Virus record (IMG/VR): IMGVR_UViG_3300042448_001193
Direction: 5' to 3' (one strand)
Origin: a virus
Lineage: Duplodnaviria; Heunggongvirae; Uroviricota; Caudoviricetes
DNA: 64,000 nt
Under the pieces are notes generated by a model. That model did not search any database. It saw only the letters and a list, made by a program, of their open reading frames with translations, and was not told the origin of the DNA. Both the position numbers and the translations under genes were made by a program. Shown piece after piece: positions 7,617-37,253 of this stretch (position 1 is its first letter; each line of letters starts with the position of its first letter).

Positions 7617-8180
7617 TTATAATTCGTCAGGCAATGGGTCTTCTAGTATATCAGGTTCCATGAACTTTTCAAGACCTTTTGCTTTGGTTTTCTTCTTTTC
7701 CTTCTTCTTTTCCTCAAAAGTCTCAATGAATTCCGAAATGTTATCATACAACACGAACTGTTTCATGTTACCTTCCGAGTCTTCATACATCTCACCAGAG
7801 TCTAGGATACCAAACTGTTGAGTCGCTTTGTACTTCACATACAATTGCTTCTTTTCTTTTTGGATTCTGCGTAGGAACGCGAAGTAAATTACCTGTGTGA
7901 AGTATGCGAATGGATTGGAAGACTTTGTTGGGTCAAAGTTTCTGAAATACATGATGCAGTTTTCGATACCATCACAAATCATTTCCTCTCGGAAAGAGTA
8001 TGATATGAAGTTTGGCTTCCTGGATAGATGATTCGCAATCTTTAAAAAGCACTCACCGATATAGTTTGGAATAATCGGGTCTTCTTTACCTGCTTCTTTG
8101 GCTGCATCACATGCGGCTCTGTAACTGATCAGTGCGGCTAGAAAGTCCGCATTGTTTACGTAGTGTTTCACTTTTGTCAT
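7617..8180 (-). CDS. gp55: Late transcription sigma factor
   Basis: HYVNNADF, IPNYIGECFLKIANHLSRKPNFISY, EMICDGIENC, SNPFAYFTQ..YFAFLRRIQKEKKQ. Confidence 0.95.
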   Translation of the reverse strand: MTKVKHYVNNADFLAALISYRAACDAAKEAGKEDPIIPNYIGECFLKIANHLSRKPNFISYSFREEMICDGIENCIMYFRNFDPTKSSNPFAYFTQVIYFAFLRRIQKEKKQLYVKYKATQQFGILDSGEMYEDSEGNMKQFVLYDNISEFIETFEEKKKEKKKTKAKGLEKFMEPDILEDPLPDEL

Positions 8181-23916: not shown

Positions 23917-24870
23917 TTAGCCCATCATTATCTCGCCAGGAAGTACGTTTGTGCTTATCAAACCATCTTCTAATTCTTTCATCTCTTCAGCCGCCTCTTG
24001 CATTATTCTGACACCATCAAGTGTAACACCACCGGGCATTTGAATACCTGCGAATTTACTGAGATTGCTTCCCCACTGATATTTGATCTTTGCTGTTGCG
24101 TATTGCTTCAGGAATCTATCGTTCCATACGTCTGAGAAACCTGGGCGTGTCAGTGTGGCACCTGTTGTTGTAGATGCAAACTGCGGAGTCACGTTTAGTG
24201 ATGCTGGTCCTGCAATCGAGACAATTTTCTTGAATTCACCATTGATGATAATTTCATCATCGACAGACAACTCACTATTGAAAGATGTGCCTGTTCCAAT
24301 TACGGTGTTGGATGTGGCAGTAACGGATACTGTGCCTGTGGATATTCTGGAATCTGGTTCTATTCTGCGATAGCACTCAACGATGACCCAGCTTCCAACA
24401 GAAACATCTCTTGTCCAATCAATATCAAGATACAATCTATTCATCTTCCTATTGAATCTGACTTGTGGTGTTCCTGAGAACAACAGATTCAATGTTCGGA
24501 TGTGTTGCATCGTTATTTCATATGAAACATACGATACCGATGTGAAGTCATAAAGGTCATGCAATCTCAGTTGGTATCTCAAGTCAAACATGTTGACTGA
24601 GGAGTTTGACTGGTCAAATGGTAAAATGCCAGTAACAAAATTGACTGCATCAGGACAGAATATGTATCTCCTGTCCATATCTTCCTGAGTGATTTGATAT
24701 TTCAAATACATCTGTTCCATACCATCATAATGATAGTCATGGTAGAATGCCAATGCATCATCAACACGATCATCCAGCTGATCTTCATCTACGTTTATTT
24801 GAATGACCGGATGTCCAAGTCTGCGTAAGCAGTATTCTTTGAATTCTGATCTTGTTCTAGGAGTTGCCAT
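23917..24870 (-). CDS. gp13: Neck protein
   Basis: EYCLRRLG.PVIQINVD..Q..DR..DAL, FDLRYQLRL.DLY, WNDRFLKQYATA.IK.QWG.NL.KF.GIQMPGGVTL.G. Confidence 0.95.
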   Translation of the reverse strand: MATPRTRSEFKEYCLRRLGHPVIQINVDEDQLDDRVDDALAFYHDYHYDGMEQMYLKYQITQEDMDRRYIFCPDAVNFVTGILPFDQSNSSVNMFDLRYQLRLHDLYDFTSVSYVSYEITMQHIRTLNLLFSGTPQVRFNRKMNRLYLDIDWTRDVSVGSWVIVECYRRIEPDSRISTGTVSVTATSNTVIGTGTSFNSELSVDDEIIINGEFKKIVSIAGPASLNVTPQFASTTTGATLTRPGFSDVWNDRFLKQYATAKIKYQWGSNLSKFAGIQMPGGVTLDGVRIMQEAAEEMKELEDGLISTNVLPGEIMMG

Positions 24871-24906: not shown

Positions 24907-24930
24907 TAAAACGCCCCATTAAAGGGGCGT
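24907..24930 (-). terminator. Rho-independent terminator after the lipoprotein gene
   Basis: ACGCCCC/GGGGCGT stem with a 6-nt loop followed by TTTT on the minus strand. Confidence 0.8.
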
Positions 24931-24952
24931 GATATTGTCAATTGAAGTTAAA

Positions 24953-25672
24953 TTATACGCAACTGCCAGCGACAAGCGTTTGGCCAGCAGGACATGAATA
25001 AGACGTATTGTTTGAGTTTGTGGTTGTCACATTAGGCTGAATGTTTTCCATGGCATCGGCAATAGCTTTGATAGAATCACTCGCATCTTTTGAAATACTA
25101 GCTGAAGCTGCACTTCCTTGACCACTGACTGTTGTGGTTGCGGTTAAACCAGCTTTAGCAACATCAACTGTGGCTGCCAGCCCAGCACCTGCTGTTGTAG
25201 TAACTGCTGTTAGACCAGCACCTGCAATGTTTGCAAACGTGTTGTTTGTGTTAGTGGTTGTAGCCACTTGGTTATCACTCTGTTTGATACCCAATGCAGT
25301 TGCGTTATTGCTTTGTGTGATAGCAACTTGACGGTTCGCATTGATTGAATAGAACTGTGTCAAGTTAGGCAACAGCAATGAAGTCCATTGCAGTGCAATA
25401 TCACCAGCAGATTTTGGTGGCAAGATTTGTTGTTGTTGATTGCGGGTGTTGTTTGAGGCAGCAAAGTTGATGCTCATAACAGCCGCTACCTTAGCTGTAG
25501 CATCACCTGTTCTTGCAATCTCAGCAAGAGCCGCATATTTTGCACTTTCTGCGGTTGCATTTGCTGATGCAATGGCTCTTTGGGCGTCTGCGTACATCTT
25601 ATAATCTTGGCTAGCACATCCAGTAAGAAGTGCTACAGACAATAAAGCCGCTATGGATAAAAATCGTTTCAT
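24953..25672 (-). CDS. Lipoprotein of unknown function
   Basis: Start moved to MKRFLSIAALLSVALLTG-C (GGAG RBS upstream): basic N-region, hydrophobic core and lipobox LTGC; Ala/Thr-rich helical body and C-terminal CPAGQTLVAGSC. Confidence 0.8.
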   Translation of the reverse strand: MKRFLSIAALLSVALLTGCASQDYKMYADAQRAIASANATAESAKYAALAEIARTGDATAKVAAVMSINFAASNNTRNQQQQILPPKSAGDIALQWTSLLLPNLTQFYSINANRQVAITQSNNATALGIKQSDNQVATTTNTNNTFANIAGAGLTAVTTTAGAGLAATVDVAKAGLTATTTVSGQGSAASASISKDASDSIKAIADAMENIQPNVTTTNSNNTSYSCPAGQTLVAGSCV

Positions 25673-25697
25673 TTTAAGCTCCTGGTAAGGGTATATG

Positions 25698-25705
25698 TAC
25701 TTATA
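25698..25705 (-). promoter_or_regulatory. Probable late promoter variant (TATAAGTA) for the lipoprotein
   Basis: One mismatch to TATAAATA, 25 nt upstream of the ATG. Confidence 0.5.
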
Positions 25706-25729: not shown

Positions 25730-26524
25730 TCACTTGATTCCCATAGACTTTCTGATCTTTGTAGCACTTATTGCATGTGTCGCGTCATCAAATACTTCCT
25801 GCTCAATCTTATATCCAACATCTCGCCCATAGGTAATGTTCACGATGTTAGGAACAACCTGAATTTCATATTGTCCTTGATATAGAGTGTCAAGATCGCG
25901 TTTAATATAGCTTTTGACTTGTTCAATGGCAAATGGATTTGATCCTTGCCAGCCTTGACAGTCTCGGATTTGTATGACAACCTGGCCAGTCTTGCTGATA
26001 GCTCTCTCAAACAAAGCTCTGTGACCTTGGTGCCATGGCTGCCATCTTCCTAGCATCTGAACAGTCTCTTTTTGCCAATCAAATGTGGGTCTGCGTCTAT
26101 TATCCAGAATATGAGCCGCAATAAACTCACCCCATTTTTCACCATGCTGTTCGGTAATCCTGAAGTCGTAAACTTCTGGTGGAGTGAAAATCTTATTGGT
26201 GTCTTCAAAGCGACCTTTATCAATGGTATCTACCCATACTGTCCAGTCTGCTTTGAAGTTATTTCGCATTTCCTGAAGAGGAGCAACGAAATCACAAATT
26301 ACAAAATCCATGTCACCATATTGAGTCTCAGCAAGTTCTGCCATTCGTTTACTTTGGCGAATACGACCCTCATGACTAAAGTCCCAATCGTTGAACTTTT
26401 TTCGTACATCATCCGCATTCAACCAGCCAACACGTTTTCTATCAGCTTGTAAATGATCCAAAATGTGTTGAGCTAGATAAGTCTTCCCGGCACCTGGTAG
26501 ACCCATAATAAGAATTTTCTGCAT
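25730..26524 (-). CDS. Fusion of a CysC (APS kinase)-like P-loop kinase and an HxGH nucleotidyltransferase
   Basis: Start MQKILIMG (CGGAG RBS); GLPGAGKT, NADDVRK..NDWDFS.EGR.RQ, DFVAP; C-terminal GRWQPWHQGH and ISATKIR. Confidence 0.75.
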   Translation of the reverse strand: MQKILIMGLPGAGKTYLAQHILDHLQADRKRVGWLNADDVRKKFNDWDFSHEGRIRQSKRMAELAETQYGDMDFVICDFVAPLQEMRNNFKADWTVWVDTIDKGRFEDTNKIFTPPEVYDFRITEQHGEKWGEFIAAHILDNRRRPTFDWQKETVQMLGRWQPWHQGHRALFERAISKTGQVVIQIRDCQGWQGSNPFAIEQVKSYIKRDLDTLYQGQYEIQVVPNIVNITYGRDVGYKIEQEVFDDATHAISATKIRKSMGIK

Positions 26525-26540
26525 AATATACTCCGTTAGA

Positions 26541-26711
26541 TTACTCTGCGGCTTGTTCTGTTTGTTCTGCTGGCTGTTCTGGCACTTGTGGTTGAACTTG
26601 TTCATGGATCAAGCTGACCAATTGCGCTGCACCTGTTTTAACTGGTAGTTCACCCAATGCATAGATGATACCGTTGACTTGTTCTAATGATAGTTTCAAT
26701 GTAATTTCCAT
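26541..26711 (-). CDS. Small hypothetical protein (56 aa) missing from the ORF track
   Basis: Hand translation MEITLKLSLEQVNGIIYALGELPVKTGAAQLVSLIHEQVQPQVPEQPAEQTEQAAE, with a GGAG RBS; fills the intergenic gap. Confidence 0.75.
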   Translation of the reverse strand: MEITLKLSLEQVNGIIYALGELPVKTGAAQLVSLIHEQVQPQVPEQPAEQTEQAAE

Positions 26712-26712
26712 T

Positions 26713-26994
26713 TTATTCTCCTTGTGTTATCCAAATGTTTTCGGCTAGTTTTGCTTCGCCTGTTGTAATAGCTGCTAGTAGATCCGTGATATCTTCTCCT
26801 GAATCAACAATTGCTTGATCAGAAACAACAATTTTCAGATGCGCAACGTTGCGTTCAATATTGCCTTTTCTTTCATTGTTTGCCTGTGATCCAGCAGCCA
26901 ATTTTGCAATCTCATCACCAATAACCCACACACTGTCCCGTGCAGCTTTGATGGTTCCCTTGATATCGTCTAATGTTCTTACTCGTTCTTCCAT
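26713..26994 (-). CDS. Small helical hypothetical protein
   Basis: 93-aa ORF with a GGAG RBS, in operon with the sulfotransferase. Confidence 0.7.
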   Translation of the reverse strand: MEERVRTLDDIKGTIKAARDSVWVIGDEIAKLAAGSQANNERKGNIERNVAHLKIVVSDQAIVDSGEDITDLLAAITTGEAKLAENIWITQGE

Positions 26995-27006
26995 GATAGA
27001 ATCTCC

Positions 27007-27924
27007 TTAAATAAATCTTGTGTCTTCTTGGTCTATTACTTCGCCAAAGAAGCTAGTCTTCTTTTCTGGCTTATCATCAACCGTTTCGTTTGTTAATGGC
27101 ACATCATCAAGTTCTCGCCAAAACTCCGCACCAACAACTGCATCCAAAATAACTTTTGGTAATACATCTTCGGGCATTTGAGCAGTTGACTTCAATTCTT
27201 TGCGGACCTCGTGCATGTCAGTGAATCCATAAATTTTAGCATCATCTTCTTGATGCTGGTTTATCAGGTTCTTAAAATCATGATTGTATTCTGATTCTCC
27301 TAGAAACTTATATATCTGTCTCATAGTTTCTTTTGGATTACTTACAAGATCCTTGTACTCAACAAAGTGAATACTTGTTCTATATCCCTCAGAAAGAGCT
27401 TTCTTTAGTCCATCAAACGATTGACCAAGAATGCCTGGACCAGCAATAGCGCGGCAACGATTTTCATCAGTCAATGGAATGCCTTGCTGCACAAGCGATT
27501 GGTCGATGAAGTTTAACCTGTCGTTGACGATGTGTGGGTTGCGTTTAATCATTGAGATGAATGATGCTAGAATCTCAGCTACATCACGCACCGGATAGAT
27601 GATCTTTGGATGTTCAATACCAAAGTATCCTTGAATATAATCCATTCTGTTTACCCAACTGCGATTCTTTTCAAATACCACTGGCTTGTCTGTATCTGCA
27701 TAGTATTGATCAATGACTGATGTAACTAGATTCTTACCAAATTCCATCTTTGGATATGCAAGAAACAGTTCATCTTGGCTCAGTGATTGTTCCAAAGTTA
27801 ACATGGTAGAAACCACCGGCGAACTAGGACCAGAGTAGAATCTTGGATTTTGGTTTAGGATAGCCGATAGCATTGTGCTGCCGCTACGTGGCAAACCTGC
27901 CATAAAATAGTATTTTTTCTTCAT
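27007..27924 (-). CDS. PAPS-dependent sulfotransferase
   Basis: 5'-PSB loop AGLPRSGSTMLSAILNQNP, FEKNRSW, 3'-PB motif RDVAEILASF, VEYKDLVSNP.ETM..IY.FL. Confidence 0.85.
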   Translation of the reverse strand: MKKKYYFMAGLPRSGSTMLSAILNQNPRFYSGPSSPVVSTMLTLEQSLSQDELFLAYPKMEFGKNLVTSVIDQYYADTDKPVVFEKNRSWVNRMDYIQGYFGIEHPKIIYPVRDVAEILASFISMIKRNPHIVNDRLNFIDQSLVQQGIPLTDENRCRAIAGPGILGQSFDGLKKALSEGYRTSIHFVEYKDLVSNPKETMRQIYKFLGESEYNHDFKNLINQHQEDDAKIYGFTDMHEVRKELKSTAQMPEDVLPKVILDAVVGAEFWRELDDVPLTNETVDDKPEKKTSFFGEVIDQEDTRFI

Positions 27925-27933
27925 AATAAATCC

Positions 27934-28833
27934 TTACTGTTTGTCCACTGATGCAATGATATCATCAATATTGAAAAGCTCCTGATCGTCCGTGAATGGA
28001 TATTCAACCTCGTTGCCATTGAAATCAAAGTCAAACAGATAACTTCCCGGCAACTTGAAATCGTATGGAATCTTTGTCGTTATATTAGTATGTATGTCAT
28101 ATCCAAACACAGTCGGGCTGGTGCCATTCCACAAAACCGTTGATGGTTTGTTTGTTGCAGCGGCCGCGTGTTGAAGTGAGGAATCAATAAGAATACGCTT
28201 ATCGCTGTGCAATAAGATACTGAAAAATTCCATCAATGATAGAGTTTGTTGCTGACTTGCAAAGATGTGATTTGCGCCCTTGAGCTTGATTGAATTTATC
28301 TTTGTTATCTGATAGATTGTGTAATCTTTTTTGTAATGATCTACCAAATCTTGAGCTAGTTTCTCGGGCATGTCGCGGGTCCATGCGTATGGCTTTGCAT
28401 CAGTTGTCATCATTCCACCATTGGTATGAATGACCATGATTGGCTTGCTGCCCTTTACCCAAAACTTTCTAGATAAATCGTATTGCAACTTGTTGAACTT
28501 AATCACAGGTTGTTCATTGTTATACTCCAATCCATATAACTTACACCAGTTCTGAATTAGTGGTAATTTTTTATGAATGTGATCTGTAGTGTAATACGGC
28601 TCATGGTGAAAGATGATTGAATCTTTTCCTTGAATGTAATTCTGGTAAAAGTATGATGTTGTCCCAATGGTGTATACACGATCAACAAAACTCAAATTGT
28701 TGAAAATTTCTGCGTATGCACAGACAACAATAAGTTTGCGGTCTGGATGGTTGTTCTTGATGGCTTGTGCAACTGCTGTTGCTGCGACATGTTTACCAAT
28801 GCCACCCTGAACGTGGAAAATACTATATTTCAT
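27934..28833 (-). CDS. GT-B glycosyltransferase, GT9 (heptosyltransferase)-like
   Basis: QGGIGKHVAAT, AIK..HP..KLIV, IDSSLQHAAAA..KPSTVLW..T.P..FGY. Confidence 0.7.
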   Translation of the reverse strand: MKYSIFHVQGGIGKHVAATAVAQAIKNNHPDRKLIVVCAYAEIFNNLSFVDRVYTIGTTSYFYQNYIQGKDSIIFHHEPYYTTDHIHKKLPLIQNWCKLYGLEYNNEQPVIKFNKLQYDLSRKFWVKGSKPIMVIHTNGGMMTTDAKPYAWTRDMPEKLAQDLVDHYKKDYTIYQITKINSIKLKGANHIFASQQQTLSLMEFFSILLHSDKRILIDSSLQHAAAATNKPSTVLWNGTSPTVFGYDIHTNITTKIPYDFKLPGSYLFDFDFNGNEVEYPFTDDQELFNIDDIIASVDKQ

Positions 28834-28862
28834 ATGTGTCTCATGATATGTTTCGGATGTAC

Positions 28863-28870
28863 TATTTATA
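28863..28870 (-). promoter_or_regulatory. Late promoter for the GT9-like/sulfotransferase/kinase operon
   Basis: Exact TATAAATA containing the TAA stop of the upstream gene. Confidence 0.8.
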
Positions 28871-30134
28871 CTCGTTCCAGAATAGTAAAACCATTGTTGT
28901 TCGTTTTGTGTGTCTTAAATTTCCAGTGTGGATTTTGTATCATAAACTCAATGATTGCTGTCATGAGTCCTTTTCTGTCATTGCCAACTTCACCCGTTAA
29001 TCCAAATGTGTATGTATCATGGAAAGCTAGATATTTCTTGGCTTTGTTGCCATGTAATTTTAACTCTTTTGATAGTTGACTGTAAGTATGTAGTGTGTCA
29101 ATAAACAGTAAGTCTGTTTCAGCAATCTCAATATTCAGTACATCTGCTTTTATATATTGGGCATTTTTGCCTTCCATTCTAGCCATTTCAAATAATGTAG
29201 CAACTTCTTTGTCTAAGGAGATATCATAAGAAATTAGTTTGGTGTTGGTGTTCAGAAATGCCCGTGTGCTTACGCCAGTTCTAACACCCATTTCCACTAC
29301 AGTTTCACATTGTTGGGCTAACTCATATAGCAGATGGACGTTCTCGTTGATATCGCTAAGTGTTTTTGTTGCTCGTTCATATTCTAATTGAAATGTGTTC
29401 TTCACAGCTTGTTCTTTACTAATCATCTGGTATGGTATATCCCAATTCTTTCCATCTTCAAAGTGACCAAAGCTAATGAAGTTCTTTGAATCTAATTGAA
29501 TTCGTTTAGATATCTCACTATTTGGATCATTAAAGTGCTTCAATGTTTCTGATATTTTGCCTTTGATTTTGTTTGAATTTATAGCATACACATTCTTAGC
29601 TCGTTGTGCAAGATAGTCATCGCCATACCAAACCTGATACAAACTAGGAATCTTGTTATATGATGCTCTTGTCATAAACATACAGATACCAAATGCCCAT
29701 GCTTGACCACCAATTGGTTTTGTTTTGTTGTAGTTGAGATTAACAATTTCCTCTTTGGTATTGATGTGATCGTCTATCTTATAGTTATTCTGATATCCTC
29801 GGAGATTGACCCCTATCAAATCACCATGTTTCAAATCAAAGTTGAAAACCATATCAAAAACATCATGTGACACTTTGATATCATCGTTGATGATTGCAAT
29901 GATATCTGATGTTGTGCGTTTGTGACCTTCGTTCCATGCAGGATTTACATAGATGTTTCTACCGTAACTAATCAACTCAACCTTGTTGTGTCTCAATATA
30001 GTTGCGTTAGGTCTTTTGCTCTTGTTGTTATCAACAATGATAACCTTTTTGACATTTGGATGTGAAACATAAGATTCAATACATGATTCTATACCCTGTG
30101 CCATCCACATTGTGGGAATAATGATATCAATCAT
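28866..30134 (-). CDS. GT2-like glycosyltransferase fused to a class I SAM methyltransferase (Methyltransf_24-like)
   Basis: N-terminal IIIPT, IIVDN, NIYVNPAWN.G, IAIINDDI, WYGDDYL; C-terminal VVEMGVRTGVST, DLLFIDTLHTY, AFHDT. Confidence 0.75.
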   Translation of the reverse strand: MIDIIIPTMWMAQGIESCIESYVSHPNVKKVIIVDNNKSKRPNATILRHNKVELISYGRNIYVNPAWNEGHKRTTSDIIAIINDDIKVSHDVFDMVFNFDLKHGDLIGVNLRGYQNNYKIDDHINTKEEIVNLNYNKTKPIGGQAWAFGICMFMTRASYNKIPSLYQVWYGDDYLAQRAKNVYAINSNKIKGKISETLKHFNDPNSEISKRIQLDSKNFISFGHFEDGKNWDIPYQMISKEQAVKNTFQLEYERATKTLSDINENVHLLYELAQQCETVVEMGVRTGVSTRAFLNTNTKLISYDISLDKEVATLFEMARMEGKNAQYIKADVLNIEIAETDLLFIDTLHTYSQLSKELKLHGNKAKKYLAFHDTYTFGLTGEVGNDRKGLMTAIIEFMIQNPHWKFKTHKTNNNGFTILERV

Positions 30135-30775
30135 AATTTATTGGCTTGCTTGAAATCACCTTTGTACATCTTGTTTCCAATGTGGGAAACTGTATGGTGT
30201 GGATTGCACCAGATTGTATAACCTAGTTCGGTAATCTTGTTGGACAAAGTGATATCTTCACCAACAAAGTCACCATTTTCGTAGGTGTATTCACAGATGT
30301 TTTTCAGCTTCTTATTTCTGAATACCAACTCAGTGTTTGAATCCCATAGGTCAACAATTACTTTGCGAGATAGCTTTAGAAATCCTGTGCCACTCTTTTG
30401 CACATTAATATAACCATCAGTTTCGTCAGTGACTGAATTCTTTGGAATCCATATGTTGAATGATATATTTTTATCACCTTTGTTAACCACAGGAATAGTG
30501 ATCACATCTTTTTCTGATTGAATTATATCTATCAGTGCCTGAGCATCCCAATATTCATCATCGTCAATGAATACCATAATTTCATAATCTTCTAGATAAG
30601 CAAGCGCAAAAAGCTCATTCCGAGCCATGGGCAGGATACTTTCATTCGCAAGGAACACACACTTAATATCAATGTTATTCTTGATACCTAGTTTAGTGGA
30701 TTCACACAGACTATGTACAAAATATGCATCAACCTTCTGGTCAAGGCATGGGGTAGCAATCAAAACTTTTTTCAT
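30131..30775 (-). CDS. GT-A fold glycosyltransferase
   Basis: Start moved to MKKVLIATP; LPMARNEL, VFIDDD (DxD), GTGFLKLSR, GED..L, IW....TVSHIG. Confidence 0.75.
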   Translation of the reverse strand: MKKVLIATPCLDQKVDAYFVHSLCESTKLGIKNNIDIKCVFLANESILPMARNELFALAYLEDYEIMVFIDDDEYWDAQALIDIIQSEKDVITIPVVNKGDKNISFNIWIPKNSVTDETDGYINVQKSGTGFLKLSRKVIVDLWDSNTELVFRNKKLKNICEYTYENGDFVGEDITLSNKITELGYTIWCNPHHTVSHIGNKMYKGDFKQANKL

Positions 30776-30834
30776 AAAAAACTCAAAATAAGTGAACAGA
30801 CATAGTATATATGCCTGTTCCAATCACCTGAAAA

Positions 30835-33800
30835 TTATTTTGCTTCCAGTGATGATAATCTAGCCTTCAACTCATCAACTTCCCTTGATAGTTCGTTCAC
30901 AGCATTGACTAAAATTGGTATTAAGTGATCCGTTGTTAGTTGTAGCTTTTCAGAATCATCAACAGATACTACAACAGGATGATCTCCTTCAGCTTCAAGG
31001 AAGTTCTGAGCAGTGAAACCATACCTGCGTTTACCCTCTATGTCAGTGATGCAACCAGTTTCTCTATCTTTGAATGCAAATTCAACAGGTTCAATGTTCT
31101 GCAAGAATCCGCGACCATGCGGCACACTACCAAAGATAAACTTATCACGACAATCAGAAACCGTAGTCCAACCAATCTGAATCTGGGCACATGTGTGAGT
31201 TGCATTACCCATAACAATGCGGTTAGATTCTGTTGTAAGATTTACCAAACCACCCGGAGTAAACCCGGTGGTACCAGCTCTAATACCAAACAATAAGTTG
31301 TTGCAACCTGTTGTGACTGCTACGCCGGTGCCGAAGCCTAAGAATAAGTTATTACATCCAAATGTGTTGTTGAAACCAGCATATGATCCAATGAATATGT
31401 TGCAGTTACCTGTTGTGTTTTTCTGACCTGTGCAATTACCGGAAAAGAAATTATTATTACCGAATGTGTTATAACGACCGGCTTGGTTGCCGATAAAGTT
31501 GTTGTGGTTGCCTGTGGTGTTAAAGCGACCAGCATAAAAACCGAAGAAGTTGTTGTAACTACCTGTTGTGTTGGGACGACCCGCCTGATTACCCATAAAG
31601 GTGTTATGATTGCCTGTTGTATTGCTGCGCCCAGCATAAAAACCAAAAAAGTTGTTACTGCTGCCTGTTGTAGTGTAACGACCAGCATCTCGTCCAAAAA
31701 AGTTGTTGTGACATGCGGTTGAGTTAGTACATCCAGTATATAACCCAACAAAGAAGTTATGACAGCCAAATGTGTTGAGGCGCCCAGAGGATTGACCGAT
31801 AAATGTGTTGTAACAACCTGTTGTGTTGAAGCATCCAGCTCGTAGGCCAATAAAGGTGTTGCTGCATCCAAATGTGTTGCAACTACCAGCATTGCAACCA
31901 ATAAATGTATTGAAGCCGCCGGTTGTGTTTGAGCGACCAGCATAAGCACCAAAGAAGTTGTTATTGCAGCCTGTTGTATTGTAACGACCAGCATCTCGTC
32001 CAAAAATGTTGTTGTTGCACCCGGTTGTGGTATTAAAACCAGCACTTCGGCCAATGAATGTATTGAAGCAACTGGTTGTGTTACAATACCCGGCACAACG
32101 ACCAGCAAAGAAGTTGTCACAACCGAATGTGTTACGCTGCCCAGCATTAAACCCAATAAATGTGTTGAAGCTACCTGTTGTGTTGTAACGACCAGCGTTA
32201 GTGCCAAAGAAGTTATTATAACAACCAAATGTGTTAAATTGGCCAGCACTAGAGCCAATGAAGTTGTTGAAACTTCCTGTGGTATTGCAGAGACCAACAG
32301 AGGTGCCCATGAAGTTGTTACTGTTACCCTCCGTGTTCTTGCGACCAGCGCCATTACCAAAGAAGTTGTTGGCGCTGCCAGTTGTGTTGCAGCATCCAGC
32401 ATAATAACCAAAGAAGTTGTTGCAGCTACCTGTTGTGCTGTATCGACCCGCACGAAAGCCGAAGAAATTATTATATTGACCAGTTGTGTTGCTGCACCCA
32501 GTATAATTACCAAAAAAGTTGTTGTCTCTGCCTGTTGTGTTTGAGCGACCAGTTTGATTACCAAAGAATGTGTTGTTGCTGCCAGTGGTGTTGCAGTAAC
32601 CAGCACATTGACCAGCAAAGAAATTGTTGCTGCCAAATGTGTTGCAACGCCCAGCATAATAACCAATGAATGTGTTGAAGCTACCTGTTGTGTTATTGTA
32701 ACCAGCACAACGACCAGCAAAGAAGTTGTCACATCCGAATGTGTTACTGCGACCAGCATAAGAACCAATGAAGGTGTTGAAGCTACCAGTTGTGTTATTG
32801 CGACCAGCACATGCTCCAAAGAAGTTGTTGTTACTACCAGTAGTATTAAACCTTCCGCTTGCAAAACCAAAGAAGTTGTTGCAATTGCCTGTGGTGTTGT
32901 TTCCGCCAGCATAACTACCAATAAAATTGTTGTTGGTGCCGGTAGTGTTATATCGACCAGCACTAGATCCAACAAAGATGTTATTACAACCTATTGTATT
33001 ACAGTAGCCAGCTTGTCGACCAAAGAAGTTGTTGTTGAAGCCAGTAGTGTTTCTCCATCCGGCACATTGACCAAAGAAGTTGTTGTAGCTGCCAGTGGTG
33101 TTACAAGAACCAGCAAAGACACCAAAGAAGGTGTTGTTGGTGCCAGTGGTGTTATTTAAGCCAGCATTTGATCCAATGAATGTGTTGAAGCTGCCGGTTG
33201 TGTTACAATATCCTCCACAGTGACCAGCAAAGAAGTTATTGCATCCAAATGTGTTACTGCGCCCAGCATTTAATCCAATGAATGTGTTGAAGCTGCCAGT
33301 CGTGTTGAGGCAACCAGTATTGTAACCAGCGAAGAAGTTGTTGCAGCCTGTTGAGTTGCGTTCCCCAGCAGAGCGACCAAAGAAGTTGTTGTAATTACCT
33401 GTTGTGGTACAAAGTCCGGCAAATGCTCCAATGAAGTTGTTGGCACGACTAATGGTGCTCTGGGAGCCTGCACGGATTCCAGCAAAAAAGTTGTATTTGC
33501 CAGTCGTGTTGCATAGTCCGGCGCACCGACCAATGAATGTGTTGTAGCTGCCCGCGCCGAATGTGCCCCCCACGTTACTAAAACCCGCACATAAGCCAAT
33601 GAATGTGTTGTAGCTGCCACCGCCGTATGCGCCTCCTATGTTGTTATACCCCGCACAACGCCCAGCAAAGAAGTTGTTGCATCCAAATGTGTTACTGAAG
33701 CCAGCGCCGTTACCAATAAATGTGTTGAAGTTACCTGTCGTGTTGCAAAAGCCAGCACAACGACCAGCAAAGAAGTTGTCGCATCCGAATGTGTTACTGC

Positions 33801-35517
33801 GCCCAGCATTTGATCCAATGAAGGTGTTGAAGCTACCTGTTGTGTTGCACAAACCAGCACAGAAACCAGCGAAGAAGTTATAGGTGCCAGTACCGCCTGT
33901 GCCACCAATGCAACTTACAATGTTTGTCGTGTTACAAACATTGAATGCACTTGGTGCGCTAAATGGTGAACCATTGATACTTAAACCAGTAGCATCAACT
34001 TTTAATCTTTCACATGTGCCTGCGGCTAATATAACTGTATCACATAAGCCAGCAGAGCCAACTATCGAACCGATGATTAAGTTATTAGAACCAGTTGTCA
34101 CTGCACATCCTGCATTGCATCCAAAGAATGTGTTGTTGCTGCCGGTTGTGTTTAACCGACCAGCACAACGACCAGCAAAGAAGTTGTCGCCTCCAAATGT
34201 GTTGCAATAACCTGCTCTTGTTCCAATGAATGTGTTATAACTGCCTGTTGTGTTGAGTATACCAGCACATCTGCCAAAGAAGTTGTTGTAGCCACCTGTT
34301 GTGTTGTAAGCTCCGGCACATTGACCTATAAAGTTGTTGTGGTTAGCTGTTGTGTTGTAAGCTCCGGCACATCTGCCAAAGAAGTTGTTGTAGTTGCCTG
34401 TGGTATTGCAAAAGCCGGCGCGCAACCCCATGAATATGTTGTAGCTACCTGTTGTGTTTTTGCACCCAGCGCCTGGGCCAAAGAAATTATTGCTGCAGCC
34501 AGTTGAGTTGTGGAAACCAGCCGAAGCACCAAAGAAATTATTATTATTGCCAATTGTGTTGTTGAAACCTGCAGTGTAACCAAAGAAGTTATTATAGTTA
34601 CCTGTGTCTCCATACATGAAGACATAACCTCCTATATTGTTGTAACCAGCATATTTTCCAAAGAAGTTGTTGTGGTTACCTGCTGTATTGCAAAAGCCGG
34701 CGCGGTCGCCAATGAACGTATTATTATTGCCGTATAAGTTGCTGGTACCAGCACACTGGCCAGCGAAGAAGTTGAAACTACCCGTTGTGTTACAAAGTCC
34801 AGCGCAACTACCCGCAAAGAAGTTGTTGGTACCAGTACCACCAGTACCGCTAATACAACTTACAATGTTTGTCGTGTTGCAAACGTTGAATGCCGAAGAT
34901 GTGGCTACCAGATCCCAACTTGGAGCAGCAGCACCATTTGACTTCAAGAAATAACCACAAGTTCCTGCCGCTAAAAATGCCGTAGTATTTGCATCAGACT
35001 GATATGGAATTGTGCCTGCACTACCGCCCAGTATATTCGTTGCTGATGCAGCAGTGCCTGTTGTATTTTGATTTAGTGTTGGAACATCAGCAGCTTGAAT
35101 TGCTGCCATCACAACGTTGGTGCCATTGCCGCGAAGGAAATAACCGGAAGTATTAGCACCAGCAAACGCATTCATTGCTGTCTGTGCTGTTGTTTGTCCT
35201 GAACCACCGTTAGCAATTGCTACAGTGCCCGTCACGTTTGCAGCACTACCTAAAATATTACCACTGACCTGAGAACCAGGCAAACTCAAAGAACTTAGTG
35301 TGGTGAGTGTTGAGTTTGTATTTGCTGTAATGTTTGCAGCAGTGCCTGTCGTATTCTGATTGAACGTTGGCCATGTTTGACCAGCAGCAAAAGTTACGTT
35401 ACCAGTTAGTGTTCCGCCGCCGATGGGTAAAGCACCAACTTCGGTTGCTGTTATCGTGCCGTCACCAAGCAAACCTGTGTCTGAAACTAATCCGCCCAAT
35501 ATTCTTGTTTTTGTCAT
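30835..35517 (-). CDS. Tail fibre/adhesin with about 64 Cys-rich 17-aa repeats and a C-terminal S74 intramolecular chaperone
   Basis: Repeat N-T-(T/F)-G-x-x-N-x-F-x-G-x-x-A-G-x-x; C-terminal TVSDCRDK, YGFTAQ, LIPILVNAVNEL coiled coil. Confidence 0.8.
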   Translation of the reverse strand: MTKTRILGGLVSDTGLLGDGTITATEVGALPIGGGTLTGNVTFAAGQTWPTFNQNTTGTAANITANTNSTLTTLSSLSLPGSQVSGNILGSAANVTGTVAIANGGSGQTTAQTAMNAFAGANTSGYFLRGNGTNVVMAAIQAADVPTLNQNTTGTAASATNILGGSAGTIPYQSDANTTAFLAAGTCGYFLKSNGAAAPSWDLVATSSAFNVCNTTNIVSCISGTGGTGTNNFFAGSCAGLCNTTGSFNFFAGQCAGTSNLYGNNNTFIGDRAGFCNTAGNHNNFFGKYAGYNNIGGYVFMYGDTGNYNNFFGYTAGFNNTIGNNNNFFGASAGFHNSTGCSNNFFGPGAGCKNTTGSYNIFMGLRAGFCNTTGNYNNFFGRCAGAYNTTANHNNFIGQCAGAYNTTGGYNNFFGRCAGILNTTGSYNTFIGTRAGYCNTFGGDNFFAGRCAGRLNTTGSNNTFFGCNAGCAVTTGSNNLIIGSIVGSAGLCDTVILAAGTCERLKVDATGLSINGSPFSAPSAFNVCNTTNIVSCIGGTGGTGTYNFFAGFCAGLCNTTGSFNTFIGSNAGRSNTFGCDNFFAGRCAGFCNTTGNFNTFIGNGAGFSNTFGCNNFFAGRCAGYNNIGGAYGGGSYNTFIGLCAGFSNVGGTFGAGSYNTFIGRCAGLCNTTGKYNFFAGIRAGSQSTISRANNFIGAFAGLCTTTGNYNNFFGRSAGERNSTGCNNFFAGYNTGCLNTTGSFNTFIGLNAGRSNTFGCNNFFAGHCGGYCNTTGSFNTFIGSNAGLNNTTGTNNTFFGVFAGSCNTTGSYNNFFGQCAGWRNTTGFNNNFFGRQAGYCNTIGCNNIFVGSSAGRYNTTGTNNNFIGSYAGGNNTTGNCNNFFGFASGRFNTTGSNNNFFGACAGRNNTTGSFNTFIGSYAGRSNTFGCDNFFAGRCAGYNNTTGSFNTFIGYYAGRCNTFGSNNFFAGQCAGYCNTTGSNNTFFGNQTGRSNTTGRDNNFFGNYTGCSNTTGQYNNFFGFRAGRYSTTGSCNNFFGYYAGCCNTTGSANNFFGNGAGRKNTEGNSNNFMGTSVGLCNTTGSFNNFIGSSAGQFNTFGCYNNFFGTNAGRYNTTGSFNTFIGFNAGQRNTFGCDNFFAGRCAGYCNTTSCFNTFIGRSAGFNTTTGCNNNIFGRDAGRYNTTGCNNNFFGAYAGRSNTTGGFNTFIGCNAGSCNTFGCSNTFIGLRAGCFNTTGCYNTFIGQSSGRLNTFGCHNFFVGLYTGCTNSTACHNNFFGRDAGRYTTTGSSNNFFGFYAGRSNTTGNHNTFMGNQAGRPNTTGSYNNFFGFYAGRFNTTGNHNNFIGNQAGRYNTFGNNNFFSGNCTGQKNTTGNCNIFIGSYAGFNNTFGCNNLFLGFGTGVAVTTGCNNLLFGIRAGTTGFTPGGLVNLTTESNRIVMGNATHTCAQIQIGWTTVSDCRDKFIFGSVPHGRGFLQNIEPVEFAFKDRETGCITDIEGKRRYGFTAQNFLEAEGDHPVVVSVDDSEKLQLTTDHLIPILVNAVNELSREVDELKARLSSLEAK
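31280..34830 (-). repeat. Coding tandem repeat, 51-nt (17-aa) period, two blocks of about 14 and about 50 units
   Basis: Units counted by hand from the translation; boundaries approximate. Confidence 0.9.
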
Positions 35518-35552: not shown

Positions 35553-35560
35553 TATTTATG
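35553..35560 (-). promoter_or_regulatory. Late promoter variant (CATAAATA) for the Cys-rich fibre
   Basis: ATAAATA 35 nt upstream of the ATG at 35517. Confidence 0.6.
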
Positions 35561-37082: not shown

Positions 37083-37253
37083 TTAGCCTTCAGAATTTCC
37101 AAAATCTAGATCAACCCGACTTGGTTCAATGACCGCTGCTCCTGTACCAACAATCCATAAGTTTACAGTCAATCCAGCATCTCTTGCTTCAGTTATCGCA
37201 AGATTAAGTGCTTCTTTAGCTTCCAGTACTTGTGTTTTTAATTGTTCGTTCAT
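37083..37253 (-). CDS. Small hypothetical protein (56 aa) missing from the ORF track
   Basis: MNEQLKTQVLEAKEALNLAITEARDAGLTVNLWIVGTGAAVIEPSRVDLDFGNSEG; ATGA overlap with the upstream fibre stop. Confidence 0.7.
   Translation of the reverse strand: MNEQLKTQVLEAKEALNLAITEARDAGLTVNLWIVGTGAAVIEPSRVDLDFGNSEG

What the first reader, a model, noticed from the sequence alone, without database searches (positions are those of the whole stretch)
25730..30775. Late-expressed glycosylation/methylation/sulfation operon behind the fibre genes: candidate virion-decoration pathway
Seen: directly downstream of the Cys-rich fibre are a GT-A enzyme, a GT2-methyltransferase fusion, an exact late promoter (28863-28870), a GT9-like enzyme, a sulfotransferase, two small proteins and a kinase-nucleotidyltransferase fusion. 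Known: sulfotransferases use PAPS, which is made by an adenylyltransferase plus APS kinase, so donor supply and transfer both appear encoded here. Inference: late timing and position among structural genes fit building a methylated, sulfated glycan on the virion (fibres or capsid), or remodelling the host surface late in infection, better than a generic sulfur-metabolism AMG. A complete phage pathway of this kind acting on virion proteins is poorly described.
Basis: partly seen in the sequence, partly recalled or inferred. Interest (0 to 1): 0.8.

Follow-up and report, generated by a model that had tools for sequence, protein, structure and literature searches.

The report
Phage glycosylation-sulfation cassette beside fibre gene
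An uncultured T4-like aquatic phage carries, right behind a repeat-rich tail-fibre gene, a late-transcribed set of sugar-adding, methylating and sulfating enzymes plus what looks like its own compact maker of the sulfate donor PAPS, which suggests, without proving, that the phage decorates its fibres with sulfated sugars.

Summary
On the minus strand between a 1560-aa repeat fibre and neck gene gp13 lie seven genes. They are a GT-A-like protein, a GT2-methyltransferase fusion, a GT9-fold enzyme, a PAPS-type sulfotransferase (ST), two small conserved proteins and a 264-aa kinase-nucleotidyltransferase fusion (kinNT). An exact T4 late promoter sits inside the cluster, and the window encodes the late sigma factor gp55.

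New evidence supports the donor-supply idea.
- The kinNT N-domain is an APS-kinase fold.
- 23 of 80 kinNT loci in viral contigs carry a divergent ST just upstream.
- One relative keeps only the kinase next to the ST.
- The same nucleotidyltransferase domain occurs fused to a canonical CysC.

By sequence, however, the C-domain is an NMN-adenylyltransferase relative, not a known ATP sulfurylase. kinNT also occurs widely without an ST, in SAR11, SAR86 and Xylella phages.

The link to the fibre is non-random. Eight of nine contexts with a window-type ST hold the same repeat fibre within about 11 kb. A fibre-ST-small-protein trio also travels together into a non-structural region.

The acceptor is still inferred. 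I put a virion fibre at about 45% and a host envelope glycan at about 25%. This is a new variant of known virus-encoded glycan-decoration pathways.

The parts
30835..35517 (-). 1560-aa fibre built of about 17-residue N-T-T-G..N.F.G..AG repeats, with an S74-like C-terminal chaperone region; candidate acceptor
   Evidence: PHROG virion structural protein and tail spike families. Composition G 17%, N 15%, T 13%, F 11%, C 4.8%. 40 perfect 17-aa units and 65 N-X-S/T sequons. The S74-like call for the C-terminus is my reading of the printed sequence; Pfam found no family in this protein. Homologues lie directly upstream of the cassette in L010/L011, L013, L014 and L072.
35553..35560 (-). CATAAATA, a one-mismatch late-promoter-like element 36 nt upstream of the fibre start
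30794..30820 (-). Hairpin (11 pairs, 4 G-C) between the fibre stop and the GT-A start; possibly a leaky terminator or RNA-stability element
30131..30775 (-). GT-A-like protein, 214 aa, with a DDD (DxD-like) motif; family assignment is only a lead
   Evidence: No Pfam hit. phrog_1574, unknown function. Atlas neighbours carry Anp1 or GT2 in 12-71% of members. 72-81% identical homologues in the same position in L010-L015 and L072.
28866..30134 (-). GT2 glycosyltransferase (residues 4-140) fused to a class-I methyltransferase-like domain (280-364)
   Evidence: Pfam
28863..28870 (-). Exact T4-type late promoter TATAAATA, overlapping the GT2-MT stop codon, 30 nt before the GT9-like ATG
   Evidence: gp55 present
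27934..28833 (-). GT-B glycosyltransferase with a GT9 (heptosyltransferase-like) fold
   Evidence: AF2 model pLDDT 79.7. Foldseek PDB and AFDB matches. 59% identical partner next to the ST in Marine virus AG-345-L05.
27007..27924 (-). PAPS-dependent sulfotransferase (Sulfotransfer_3/1) with a PRSGST 5'-PSB loop and an R-x7-S 3'-PB motif
   Evidence: Pfam, phrog_27463, motifs read. PDB sequence hits to TPST1/2 rest mainly on the PAPS-loop region, plus a weak second stretch at 177-217.
26713..26994 (-). 93-aa acidic protein that always follows the window-type ST
   Evidence: 59-71% identical in L010, L013, L014, L015 and L072. Weakly alignable 83-85-aa proteins follow the ST in L016 and L019.
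26541..26711 (-). 56-aa protein, conserved in at least one relative
   Evidence: 51% identity over 35 residues in L013. A likeness to L012's 74-aa ORF is my reading by eye of the rows printed.
25730..26524 (-). kinNT: APS-kinase-like P-loop kinase (1-144) fused to a trimmed NadM/NMNAT-like nucleotidyltransferase (146-264); candidate compact PAPS synthase
24911..25705 (-). End of the transcription unit: TATAAGTA (25698-25705), a lipoprotein gene (24953-25672, lipobox LLTGC) and a strong terminator hairpin (24911-24930)

Best explanation
This is a late-transcribed, horizontally mobile cassette of a T4-like aquatic myovirus. It builds and tailors a glycan and sulfates a macromolecular acceptor in the infected cell's cytoplasm.

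The proposed steps are as follows.
- Three soluble glycosyltransferases (GT-A-like, GT2 and GT9-fold) add sugars.
- The fused methyltransferase methylates the product.
- The Sulfotransfer_3 enzyme transfers sulfate from PAPS.
- The kinase-nucleotidyltransferase fusion (kinNT) supplies the PAPS locally.

In kinNT, the APS-kinase-like domain would convert APS to PAPS. The trimmed NMNAT-like domain most likely makes APS from ATP and sulfate. This gives the same kinase-then-adenylyltransferase order as animal PAPS synthase.

The most likely acceptor is the adjacent N-T-T-G repeat fibre, a receptor-binding virion protein. It would be modified either through a glycan or directly.

Shown here: gene content, folds, late-promoter motifs and conserved synteny. 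Inferred: all enzyme activities, the PAPS-synthase role and the identity of the acceptor.
For: 1. Domain calls come from Pfam and from predicted structure.

2. Late timing. Six of six exact TATAAATA copies lie on the coding strand just upstream of starts. gp55 is encoded in the window. A terminator follows the unit.

3. No enzyme has a transmembrane or signal segment. The highest Kyte-Doolittle 19-residue average is 1.42, against 1.75 for the neighbouring lipoprotein.

4. PAPS supply.
- The kinase domain's top 50 Foldseek hits are all APS kinases. VIA-align gives Z 18.4 to CysC, and both domains align to human PAPSS1 at Z 16.7.
- The residues aligned to the APS-kinase motifs (D38, R41, F49, R54, R87) are invariant or nearly so in the family.
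- 23 of 80 kinNT loci in IMG/VR carry an ST that is only 25-35% identical to the window's ST. It lies upstream on the same strand, in at least 12 different arrangements, and often abuts or overlaps kinNT.
- By contrast, only 10 of 50,697 phage records have any ST of this kind.
- In L015 a kinase-only gene follows the ST.
- P0340 fuses the same nucleotidyltransferase domain to a full canonical CysC (211.9 bits).
- A Bradyrhizobium MAG has the gene order TPR-GT9, kinNT, TPR-Sulfotransfer_3.
- A relative genome rated 100% complete has no canonical ATP sulfurylase.

5. Link to the fibre.
- A homologous repeat fibre lies directly upstream in the window, L010/L011, L013, L014 and L072. It lies 8-16 kb upstream in the record that holds L015.
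- L016-L020 keep only the trio of repeat protein, ST and an ~85-aa protein. In L016 this trio sits between an SbcC-like gene and a peptidase, outside any structural module.
- Other ST types sit behind other adhesin-like genes: three RCC1-repeat proteins in L029 and an Lcl_C + fn3 protein in L032.

6. Precedent. The GT9-fold enzyme TibC heptosylates a repeat adhesin in the cytoplasm; the fold match is and its function is established knowledge. PMC2938197 predicted that bacterial operons with an ST and a PAPS synthetase sulfate tail-collar-like proteins.
Against: - No experiment or proteomic datum bears on the acceptor.
- Soluble glycosyltransferases also act on lipid-linked intermediates at the inner membrane, and GT9 enzymes classically build the LPS core.
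- In L012 the same cassette lies next to ribonucleotide reductase genes with no fibre within 8 kb. In S-SKS1 the ST is in a non-structural region.
- The slot before gp13 is variable, so position alone is weak evidence.
- By sequence the nucleotidyltransferase domain is an NMNAT relative (1f9a, E 4.9e-12). It matches no ATP sulfurylase at E <= 10. It lacks the QxRN motif.
- kinNT scores far below NCBIfam cut-offs for both CysC and NMNAT.
- kinNT occurs without an ST in 57 of 80 viral loci and in the complete Xylella phage Sano genome. It also occurs as a split gene pair in SAR11 and SAR86 chromosomes, where only 2 of 120 loci had an ST-like neighbour.
- One relative fuses the phage-type kinase domain to a sugar-phosphate NTP_transferase (P0391). 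This hints at nucleotide-sugar synthesis instead.
- L010/L011 and L016-L020 have the ST but no kinNT nearby.
Confidence: 0.45

Rival explanations
1. The cassette remodels a host envelope glycan (LPS core or O-antigen, capsule or exopolysaccharide) late in infection. This could mask receptors so that progeny are not lost on cell debris, or exclude superinfecting phages. The enzymes would act on lipid-linked intermediates at the cytoplasmic face of the inner membrane.
For: The best solved matches of the GT9-fold enzyme are the LPS heptosyltransferases WaaC and WaaF. GT2 enzymes and methyl, sulfate or carbamoyl tailoring are typical of polysaccharide and Nod-factor pathways: the ST hits NoeE weakly, and a NolO-like carbamoyltransferase sits next to the ST/GT9 pair in AG-345-L05. 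An outer-membrane-type lipoprotein is co-transcribed downstream. In L012 and S-SKS1 the genes are not next to structural genes. From my own knowledge, cyanomyoviruses such as P-SSM2 carry LPS-type gene clusters.
Against: The cassette has no flippase, polymerase, initiating phosphoglycosyltransferase or any membrane protein. Late expression shortly before lysis leaves little time for export. The window-type ST tracks one fibre family across otherwise different gene neighbourhoods.
Confidence: 0.25
2. kinNT is not a PAPS synthase. It would be a two-step small-molecule activating enzyme of another kind. One option is a kinase plus adenylyl- or cytidylyl-transferase that makes a nucleotide-activated sugar for the GT9-fold enzyme, by analogy with HldE. 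Another is an NAD- or CoA-type nucleotide enzyme. Its place next to the ST would reflect a conserved slot upstream of gp13.
For: The C-domain profile matches NadM-type NMNATs and nothing sulfate-related. P0391 joins the phage-type kinase to a PF00483 sugar-phosphate nucleotidyltransferase. Most kinNT genes have no ST nearby, including the SAR11 and SAR86 chromosomal pairs and Xylella phage Sano. In Xylella phage Bacata the neighbouring gene is annotated COG3236/GTP cyclohydrolase II. kinNT abuts gp13 in 12 loci. In Bradyrhizobium a GT9-like gene is also adjacent.
Against: The kinase domain is closest to APS kinases by 3-4 Z units over gluconate kinase and Kti12, and it passes Pfam's APS_kinase threshold. 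STs, not GT9-like genes, are the recurrent neighbour: 23 of 80 loci against 1 of 80. The kinase-only form next to an ST and the fusion of the nucleotidyltransferase domain to canonical CysC are hard to explain otherwise. The segment aligned to the NMN-binding region of archaeal NMNAT is missing.
Confidence: 0.3
3. The genes are an accidental collection of unrelated accessory genes in a hypervariable island and share no pathway or acceptor.
For: The region between the fibre genes and gp13 differs between close relatives. L080 shares gp17 at 85% identity but carries a different ST and no detectable homologues of the window's GT genes. Individual members occur alone elsewhere.
Against: The order GT-A, GT2-MT, GT9-like, ST, 93-aa protein is kept at 58-85% protein identity in seven separate contig contexts, including one away from structural genes. 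ST + kinNT and ST + GT9-like pairs recur in unrelated backgrounds.
Confidence: 0.07

Closest known systems
Animal bifunctional PAPS synthase (PAPSS1/2)
   Same: N-terminal APS kinase followed by a C-terminal HxxH-type adenylyltransferase on one chain. Both kinNT domains align to 1x6v (Z 16.7, 250 residues).
   Different: kinNT has 264 residues against about 620. The kinase lid is shortened: only positions 5-94 of the 152-position Pfam profile match. The C-domain is NadM/NMNAT-like, lacks the ATP-sulfurylase QxRN motif and matches no sulfurylase by sequence. Activity is untested.
Rhizobial Nod-factor sulfation (NodH/NoeE with dedicated NodPQ) and Xanthomonas RaxST with RaxPQ
   Same: A PAPS-dependent ST is encoded together with its own sulfate-activation genes and with glycan-tailoring enzymes (methyl, carbamoyl). 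This rests on established knowledge. The ST hits NoeE weakly and TPST mainly in the PAPS loop.
   Different: NodPQ and RaxPQ are CysDN/CysC-type enzymes. Here the activating enzyme is of a different, compact type, and the setting is a lytic phage late operon.
Bacterial autotransporter heptosyltransferases (TibC, Aah)
   Same: A GT9 fold and a soluble cytoplasmic enzyme encoded next to a long repeat-rich, probably beta-helical, adhesin that it modifies.
   Different: TM-scores are about 0.55, no better than for LPS heptosyltransferases. The phage protein is shorter (299 against about 400 aa). No ADP-heptose pathway is encoded nearby. By eye, the N-terminal GD catalytic motif of WaaC reads GGIGKH here.
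Virus-encoded virion glycosylation (mycobacteriophage capsid and tail glycosylation; chlorovirus PBCV-1 A064R, a GT-GT-methyltransferase protein)
   Same: Virus-encoded glycosyltransferases, in one case fused to a methyltransferase, lie near structural genes and decorate virion proteins (Freeman et al. 2023, as cited in PMC12582341; PBCV-1 from my own knowledge).
   Different: Neither system is known to me to include a sulfotransferase or a PAPS supply. Here virion modification is only inferred.
Predicted bacterial operons: 2OG-Fe(II) hydroxylases + sulfotransferase + PAPS synthetase + tail-collar or collagen-like proteins (Iyer et al. 2010, PMC2938197)
   Same: An ST and a PAPS-making enzyme are co-encoded with a phage-fibre-like protein proposed as the substrate. 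Relatives of this cassette carry 2OG-Fe(II) oxygenases next to the ST (L012, AG-345-L05).
   Different: Those operons are cellular and use canonical PAPS synthetases. The window has no oxygenase but has three glycosyltransferases.

Membership tests
APS kinase (CysC, PF01583) | Profile match above the curated threshold | tested here: met
   Pfam APS_kinase 46.9 bits against a cut-off of 21.1, but only profile positions 5-94 of 152.
APS kinase (CysC, PF01583) | Equivalog-level match (NCBIfam TIGR00455 and related models) | tested here: not met
   35.5 bits against 138.7, and 44.9 against 127.
APS kinase (CysC, PF01583) | APS-kinase fold | tested here: met
   Top 50 Foldseek PDB hits are all APS kinases. 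VIA-align Z 18.4 to 4rfv, rmsd 1.8 over 129 residues.
APS kinase (CysC, PF01583) | Motifs: Walker A; L-D-G-D-x-x-R; F-S-x-E-D-R..N..RR; S-F-I-S-P; lid K-G-L-Y..FTG..PYE | tested here: inconclusive
   Walker A is present. LNADDVR keeps the second Asp and the Arg. DFSHEGRIRQ keeps the Phe and Arg. DFVAP keeps the Pro. The lid is shortened and its motifs are absent.
APS kinase (CysC, PF01583) | Phosphorylation of APS to PAPS | not testable with these tools
   Needs an enzyme assay.
ATP sulfurylase (Sat, PF01747) | Sequence or profile similarity to the family | tested here: not met
   No Pfam hit. No sulfurylase among 56 PDB matches of the C-domain profile at E <= 10.
ATP sulfurylase (Sat, PF01747) | HxxH, QxRN and GRD(H)AG motifs | tested here: inconclusive
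   HxGH is present (HQGH). QxRN is absent (GRWQP). An invariant Y-G-R-x-V-G-Y lies where GRD would be expected, but no structural superposition was possible.
NadM-type NMN adenylyltransferase | GRFQPFHxGH and S-x-T-x-x-R motifs; profile similarity | tested here: met
   Family consensus GRFQPFHxGH ... ISATxIR. 1f9a at E 4.9e-12 and 2qjt at 5.8e-10.
NadM-type NMN adenylyltransferase | Full-length equivalog match including the NMN-binding segment | tested here: not met
   TIGR01527 scores 25.2 bits against 181.2. The HMMER alignment stops at 1f9a residue 75 and resumes at 109. The phage domain has about 119 residues against 168.
PAPS-dependent sulfotransferase (PF13469/PF00685) | Profile match above threshold and PAPS-binding motifs (5'-PSB, 3'-PB) | tested here: met
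   61.2 and 52.8 bits, above cut-offs of 27 and 22. PRSGST and R-x7-S read.
Protein-tyrosine sulfotransferase (TPST/RaxST type) | Similarity beyond the PAPS-binding loop; acidic Tyr-containing substrate | tested here: inconclusive
   PDB hits to TPST1/2 (E 3.7e-5) rest mainly on residues 6-51, with a weak second stretch at 177-217. The fibre has 54 Tyr but only 2.6% Asp + Glu.
Glycosyltransferase family 9 | Sequence profile match | tested here: not met
   No Pfam hit. TIGR02193 scores 16.5 bits against 185.3.
Glycosyltransferase family 9 | GT-B fold closest to GT9 structures | tested here: met
   3tov at E 1e-9 and TM 0.62; WaaF, WaaC and TibC follow. AFDB clusters named heptosyltransferase.
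Glycosyltransferase family 2 / class-I methyltransferase fusion | Pfam matches for both domains | tested here: inconclusive
   GT2 is met (36.3 against 23.3). Methyltransf_24 scores 26.1 against 26.3, just below its cut-off.
T4-type late transcription unit | TATAAATA at about -10 upstream of genes, and a gp55 late sigma factor in the genome | tested here: met
   Actual timing of expression was not tested.
Virus-encoded virion glycosylation system | Glycan demonstrated on virion proteins and dependent on the viral enzymes | not testable with these tools
   Needs virion or co-expression mass spectrometry.

The most novel reading that the evidence does not exclude
kinNT is a previously unrecognised compact PAPS synthase. 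In it, a trimmed NadM/NMNAT-type nucleotidyltransferase has been recruited as an ATP sulfurylase, which would be a further independent route to sulfate activation. It is widespread in aquatic phages and, as a split gene pair, in SAR11 and SAR86. T4-like phages would pair it with sulfotransferases to sulfate their receptor-binding fibres, giving the first sulfated phage virions.
Probability: 0.25. Interest if true: 0.85.

Novelty: new variant of a known kind. Interest (0 to 1): 0.65.

Why it matters
Phage sulfotransferases are listed in surveys as auxiliary genes whose function is called unclear (PMC10580990). This work places them in a recurring operon with a candidate PAPS-making enzyme and next to receptor-binding fibre genes. 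That gives a concrete and cheap experiment.

If fibres carry sulfated, methylated glycans, host recognition in abundant aquatic T4-like phages would depend on a layer that protein sequence does not show.

If the kinase-nucleotidyltransferase fusion makes PAPS, it is a new minimal enzyme for sulfate activation. It would also touch the sulfur metabolism of SAR11 and SAR86, which carry close homologues.

Tried and rejected
- Megablast of the cluster against 50,697 phage records found nothing. The phage is only distantly related to isolates; its TerL is about 55% identical to cyanomyovirus TerL.
- No whole genome is held for the window.
- I looked for a canonical ATP sulfurylase (PF01747) in five related viral records, one of them complete. 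None was found.
- I looked for psbA to test for cyanophage identity. None was found in the same five records. The host is therefore probably not a cyanobacterium, but this is weak evidence.
- The search for related loci on genome contigs with alignments A3 and A1 failed for lack of a conserved stretch. A degenerate DNA pattern over PNI....YGR.VGY worked instead.
- tblastn with phage ST queries missed the TPR-ST of Bradyrhizobium. A custom HMM then found ST-like neighbours in only 2 of 120 cellular loci.
- Sequence matches of the ST to TPST and NoeE rest mainly on the PAPS loop, so I rejected them as evidence about the substrate.
- Longer fused forms of the ST are about 590-aa proteins, one of them with a TPR domain. 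There are no fibre or glycosyltransferase fusions.
- I did not run complex prediction, because enzyme-substrate pairs are poor cases for it.
- The Freeman et al. 2023 paper is not held, so it is cited second-hand.

Full report
**Setting.** All long ORFs of the 64-kb window lie on the minus strand. PHROG profiles identify a T4-like structural module:
- baseplate and several fibre genes at 57-30.8 kb;
- gp13, gp14, gp15, gp16 and gp17;
- sheath, tube, portal, protease, scaffold and major capsid protein.

The large terminase is about 55% identical to those of cyanomyoviruses, and no isolate phage matches at the DNA level. No whole genome is held for the window. Related viral records, one rated 100% complete, have no psbA. 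This is therefore an uncultured T4-like aquatic myovirus of uncertain host.

**The observation.** The following genes lie between the 1560-aa fibre (30835-35517) and gp13 (23917-24870).
- A 214-aa GT-A-like protein (30131-30775). It has no Pfam hit and matches phrog_1574, which has no known function. The ESM Atlas gives a lead to Anp1/GT2.
- A GT2 domain fused to a Methyltransf_24-like domain (28866-30134). GT2 is clearly above its threshold. The methyltransferase domain is 0.2 bits below.
- A 299-aa protein without a Pfam hit (27934-28833). Its AF2 model (pLDDT 79.7) matches GT9 structures best: 3tov at E 1e-9 and TM 0.62, then WaaF, WaaC and TibC. AlphaFold clusters named heptosyltransferase also match.
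- A sulfotransferase (27007-27924). Sulfotransfer_3 and Sulfotransfer_1 are both above threshold. A PRSGST loop and an R-x7-S motif are readable.
- Two small proteins of 93 and 56 aa.
- A kinase-nucleotidyltransferase fusion (kinNT). Its homologues are 264 aa long, so the real start is at 26524.

None of the enzymes has a hydrophobic segment, so I take them to be cytoplasmic.

**Transcription signals.** TATAAATA at 28863-28870 is exact. It overlaps the stop codon of the GT2-MT gene and lies 30 nt before the next ATG. The window has six exact copies. All are on the coding strand, none on the other strand, and each lies within 89 nt upstream of a start codon, including those of gp13 and the scaffold gene. 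Shuffles give 2.3 copies on average.

CATAAATA lies 36 nt before the fibre start and TATAAGTA 26 nt before the downstream lipoprotein gene. A strong terminator follows that gene, and a weaker hairpin separates the fibre from the GT-A-like gene. The late sigma factor gp55 is encoded at 7617-8180. The motif evidence therefore fits late expression. Timing itself was not measured.

**Is the cassette a unit?** In contigs that carry 72-85% identical GT9-like genes, the order GT-A, GT2-MT, GT9-like, ST, 93-aa protein is kept. This holds for L010/L011, L012, L013, L014, L015 and L072. There are local insertions: a sugar epimerase/dehydratase and a giant GT1-GT2-GT2 protein in L010/L011.

In L012 the cassette lies beside ribonucleotide reductase genes and not beside fibre genes, so it moves as a block. 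In Marine virus AG-345-L05 a 44% identical ST and a 59% identical GT9-like protein are neighbours. They sit with a 2OG-Fe(II) oxygenase, a NolO-like carbamoyltransferase and a 916-aa virion structural protein. In Synechococcus phage S-SRM01 the ST sits with a glycosyltransferase and a nucleotide-sugar epimerase downstream of a tail-fibre gene. These partners are typical glycan-tailoring enzymes.

**The donor-supply question.** The AF2 model of kinNT is confident (pLDDT 95).

Residues 1-144 have an APS-kinase fold.
- All of the top 50 Foldseek PDB hits and the top 30 Swiss-Prot model hits are APS kinases.
- VIA-align gives Z 18.4 to M. tuberculosis CysC. Gluconate kinase follows at 14.7 and Kti12 at 13.8.
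- HMMER aligns the family's conserved D38, R41, F49, R54 and R87 with the D-x-x-R, F-S-x-E-D-R and S-P..R motifs of APS kinases.
- The lid is shortened, however, and NCBIfam equivalog cut-offs are far from met.

Residues 146-264 are, by profile, relatives of archaeal/NadM NMN adenylyltransferases.
- 1f9a matches at E 4.9e-12, and no ATP sulfurylase appears at E <= 10.
- The segment that aligns with NMNAT residues 76-108 is missing. In its place is the motif Y-G-R-x-V-G-Y with invariant G, R and G.
- I read this as loss of the NMN pocket and gain of a site for a small anion. That is an inference.

**Context evidence for PAPS.**
- I fetched the 80 best kinNT loci from IMG/VR. In 22 by tblastn, and 23 by a custom HMM, a Sulfotransfer_3 gene lies upstream on the same strand. 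It is only 25-35% identical to the window's ST. Spacings fall into at least a dozen arrangements, and several genes abut or overlap kinNT.
- For comparison, only 10 of 50,697 phage records contain any ST detectable with the window's protein.
- In L015 the gene after the ST encodes only the kinase domain.
- Among distant relatives, P0340 joins the same nucleotidyltransferase domain (GRWQPWHKGH ... YGRDVGY ... ISATEVR) to a full-length canonical CysC at 211.9 bits. Because a canonical CysC is, to my knowledge, specific for APS, the simplest reading is that this nucleotidyltransferase makes APS.
- A Bradyrhizobium MAG has the gene order TPR-GT9-like, kinNT, TPR-Sulfotransfer_3.
- A complete related phage genome has an ST and kinNT but no canonical ATP sulfurylase.

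**Context evidence against PAPS.**
- 57 of the 80 viral loci show no ST, although many are cut short. L004-L009 carry an 85% identical kinNT among clamp-loader, PhoH, DnaJ and ClpB genes and share nothing else with the window.
- Xylella, Stenotrophomonas and Xanthomonas siphoviruses carry kinNT. The complete Sano genome has no Sulfotransfer_3.
- A pattern scan of prokaryotic genomes returned 120 loci, all true homologues. Most are from Pelagibacteraceae and SAR86, where the kinase (136 aa) and the nucleotidyltransferase (124 aa) are separate overlapping genes.
- In a SAR11 isolate genome they sit with a dimethylglycine-dehydrogenase-like gene, a methyltransferase, an M24 peptidase and a HalD-like oxygenase.
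- Only 2 of the 120 loci have an ST-like neighbour.
- P0391 fuses the phage-type kinase to a sugar-phosphate NTP_transferase. This keeps a nucleotide-sugar role alive, by analogy with HldE.

I put kinNT as a source of PAPS at about 60%, and its C-domain as an ATP sulfurylase at about 45%.

**The acceptor.** The fibre is made of about 17-residue units N-T-T-G-x-x-N-x-F-x-G-x-x-A-G-x-x. There are 40 perfect units and 65 N-X-S/T sequons. Cysteine makes up 4.8% of residues, and the C-terminus resembles an S74-type chaperone (PHROG tail spike). Pfam itself found no family in this protein, so the chaperone call is my reading of the sequence.

- Homologous repeat fibres lie directly upstream of the cassette in the window, L010/L011, L013, L014 and L072.
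- The record holding L015 has two such fibre ORFs 8-16 kb upstream, with other fibre and fibre-assembly genes in between.
- In the more distant L016-L020, where the ST is 56-59% identical, there are no glycosyltransferases. A 419-469-aa protein of the same repeat type is followed directly by the ST and an 83-85-aa protein.
- In L016 this trio sits between an SbcC/gp46-like gene and a peptidase, outside any structural module.

So eight of nine window-type ST contexts hold the repeat fibre in cis; L012 is the exception within the 8 kb seen. The trio also moves together. Phages with other ST types have other adhesin-like genes in front: three RCC1-repeat proteins in L029 and an Lcl_C + fn3 protein in L032. 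The complete genome behind L029 has no N-T-T-G fibre.

These contigs are related, so the counts are not independent events.

Two analogies point the same way. TibC and Aah are GT9-fold enzymes that heptosylate repeat adhesins in the cytoplasm. Iyer et al. predicted that bacterial operons with an ST and a PAPS synthetase sulfate co-encoded tail-collar or collagen-like proteins (PMC2938197).

Nothing excludes a lipid-linked host glycan as the acceptor. GT9 enzymes classically build the LPS core, and a lipoprotein is co-transcribed. I therefore give the fibre about 45% and the host envelope about 25%.

The ST's sequence hits to TPST and to NoeE rest mainly on the PAPS loop. They say nothing about whether the sulfate goes on a sugar or on the protein. 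The L016-type trio, which has no glycosyltransferases, leaves direct protein sulfation open.

**What is known.** Virus-encoded virion glycosylation exists in mycobacteriophages (Freeman et al. 2023, cited in PMC12582341; see also PMC11256854). From my own knowledge it also exists in chloroviruses, where PBCV-1 A064R joins two glycosyltransferase domains to a methyltransferase.

Dedicated PAPS supply next to an ST is textbook for NodPQ-NodH and RaxPQ-RaxST. Phage STs have been noted, but their function is called unclear (PMC10580990). Searches for phage + sulfotransferase + adenylylsulfate kinase or PAPS found no description of this operon.

**Verdict.** I class the finding as a new variant of a known kind. 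I tested the first in several ways and the second only by counting.

The most valuable single item is the kinNT family. It has a confident two-domain model and a strong but not universal association with sulfotransferases. Its function can be settled with one enzyme assay.

Noticed in passing
window 24953-25672 (-), promoter-like 25698-25705, terminator 24911-24930: A 239-aa lipoprotein (signal peptide with lipobox LLTGC; Ala-, Thr- and Asn-rich; C-terminal CPAGQTLVAGSC) ends the transcription unit. It has its own near-consensus late element and a strong terminator. It could be a receptor-masking or exclusion protein, or a periplasmic target of the cassette.
   Followed up: partly
L184 1523-2304 (Ca. 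Pelagibacter HIMB1495), L176 2231-3008 (SAR86 chromosome), and about 100 further loci L105-L224: SAR11 and SAR86 genomes carry about 50% identical homologues of kinNT, split into two overlapping genes (kinase 136 aa, nucleotidyltransferase 124 aa). In SAR11 they lie in an operon with a dimethylglycine-dehydrogenase-like gene, a methyltransferase, an M24 peptidase and a HalD-like oxygenase. In SAR86 they lie next to a PF03601 (Cons_hypoth698) membrane protein. Function unknown.
   Followed up: partly
L143 1949-6865 (Bradyrhizobium MAG): The gene order TPR-GT9-like, fused kinNT, TPR-Sulfotransfer_3 is a cellular counterpart of the phage trio. The TPR domains hint at protein substrates.
   Followed up: partly
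P0340 (311 aa, metagenomic): A natural fusion of the phage-type nucleotidyltransferase domain to a full canonical CysC APS kinase, in reversed domain order. P0316 shows the same reversed order with the phage-type kinase.
   Followed up: partly
L118 (contig NYUU01000002.1, labelled Synechococcus sp. CPC35 MAG): The contig carries kinNT followed by gp13, gp14, gp15 and gp17 homologues. It is a T4-like phage contig binned into a bacterial MAG.
   Followed up: no
L002 8528-15875 (Marine virus AG-345-L05): A virion structural protein, a 2OG-Fe(II) oxygenase, an ST, a 111-aa protein, a GT9-like protein and a NolO-like carbamoyltransferase lie in a row. This is another tailoring set built around the same ST/GT9-like pair.
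   Followed up: partly
L029 2291-10381 (complete 177-kb relative): Three tandem RCC1-repeat proteins, a methyltransferase, a CxxCxxCC protein, an ST, an extra 297-aa P-loop protein and kinNT precede gp13. This is a different sulfation set in the same slot.
   Followed up: partly
L004-L009: An 85% identical kinNT lies among clamp-loader, PhoH, TctC, DnaJ and ClpB genes in phages that share no other detectable gene with the window over 20 kb. This points to recent horizontal transfer or to very strong conservation of this one gene.
   Followed up: partly
window 37250-39934 (-): An 894-aa fibre with a Peptidase_S74 intramolecular chaperone domain (Pfam E 1e-13). Several further fibre genes lie upstream, so the phage has an unusually large set of fibre genes.
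   Followed up: no
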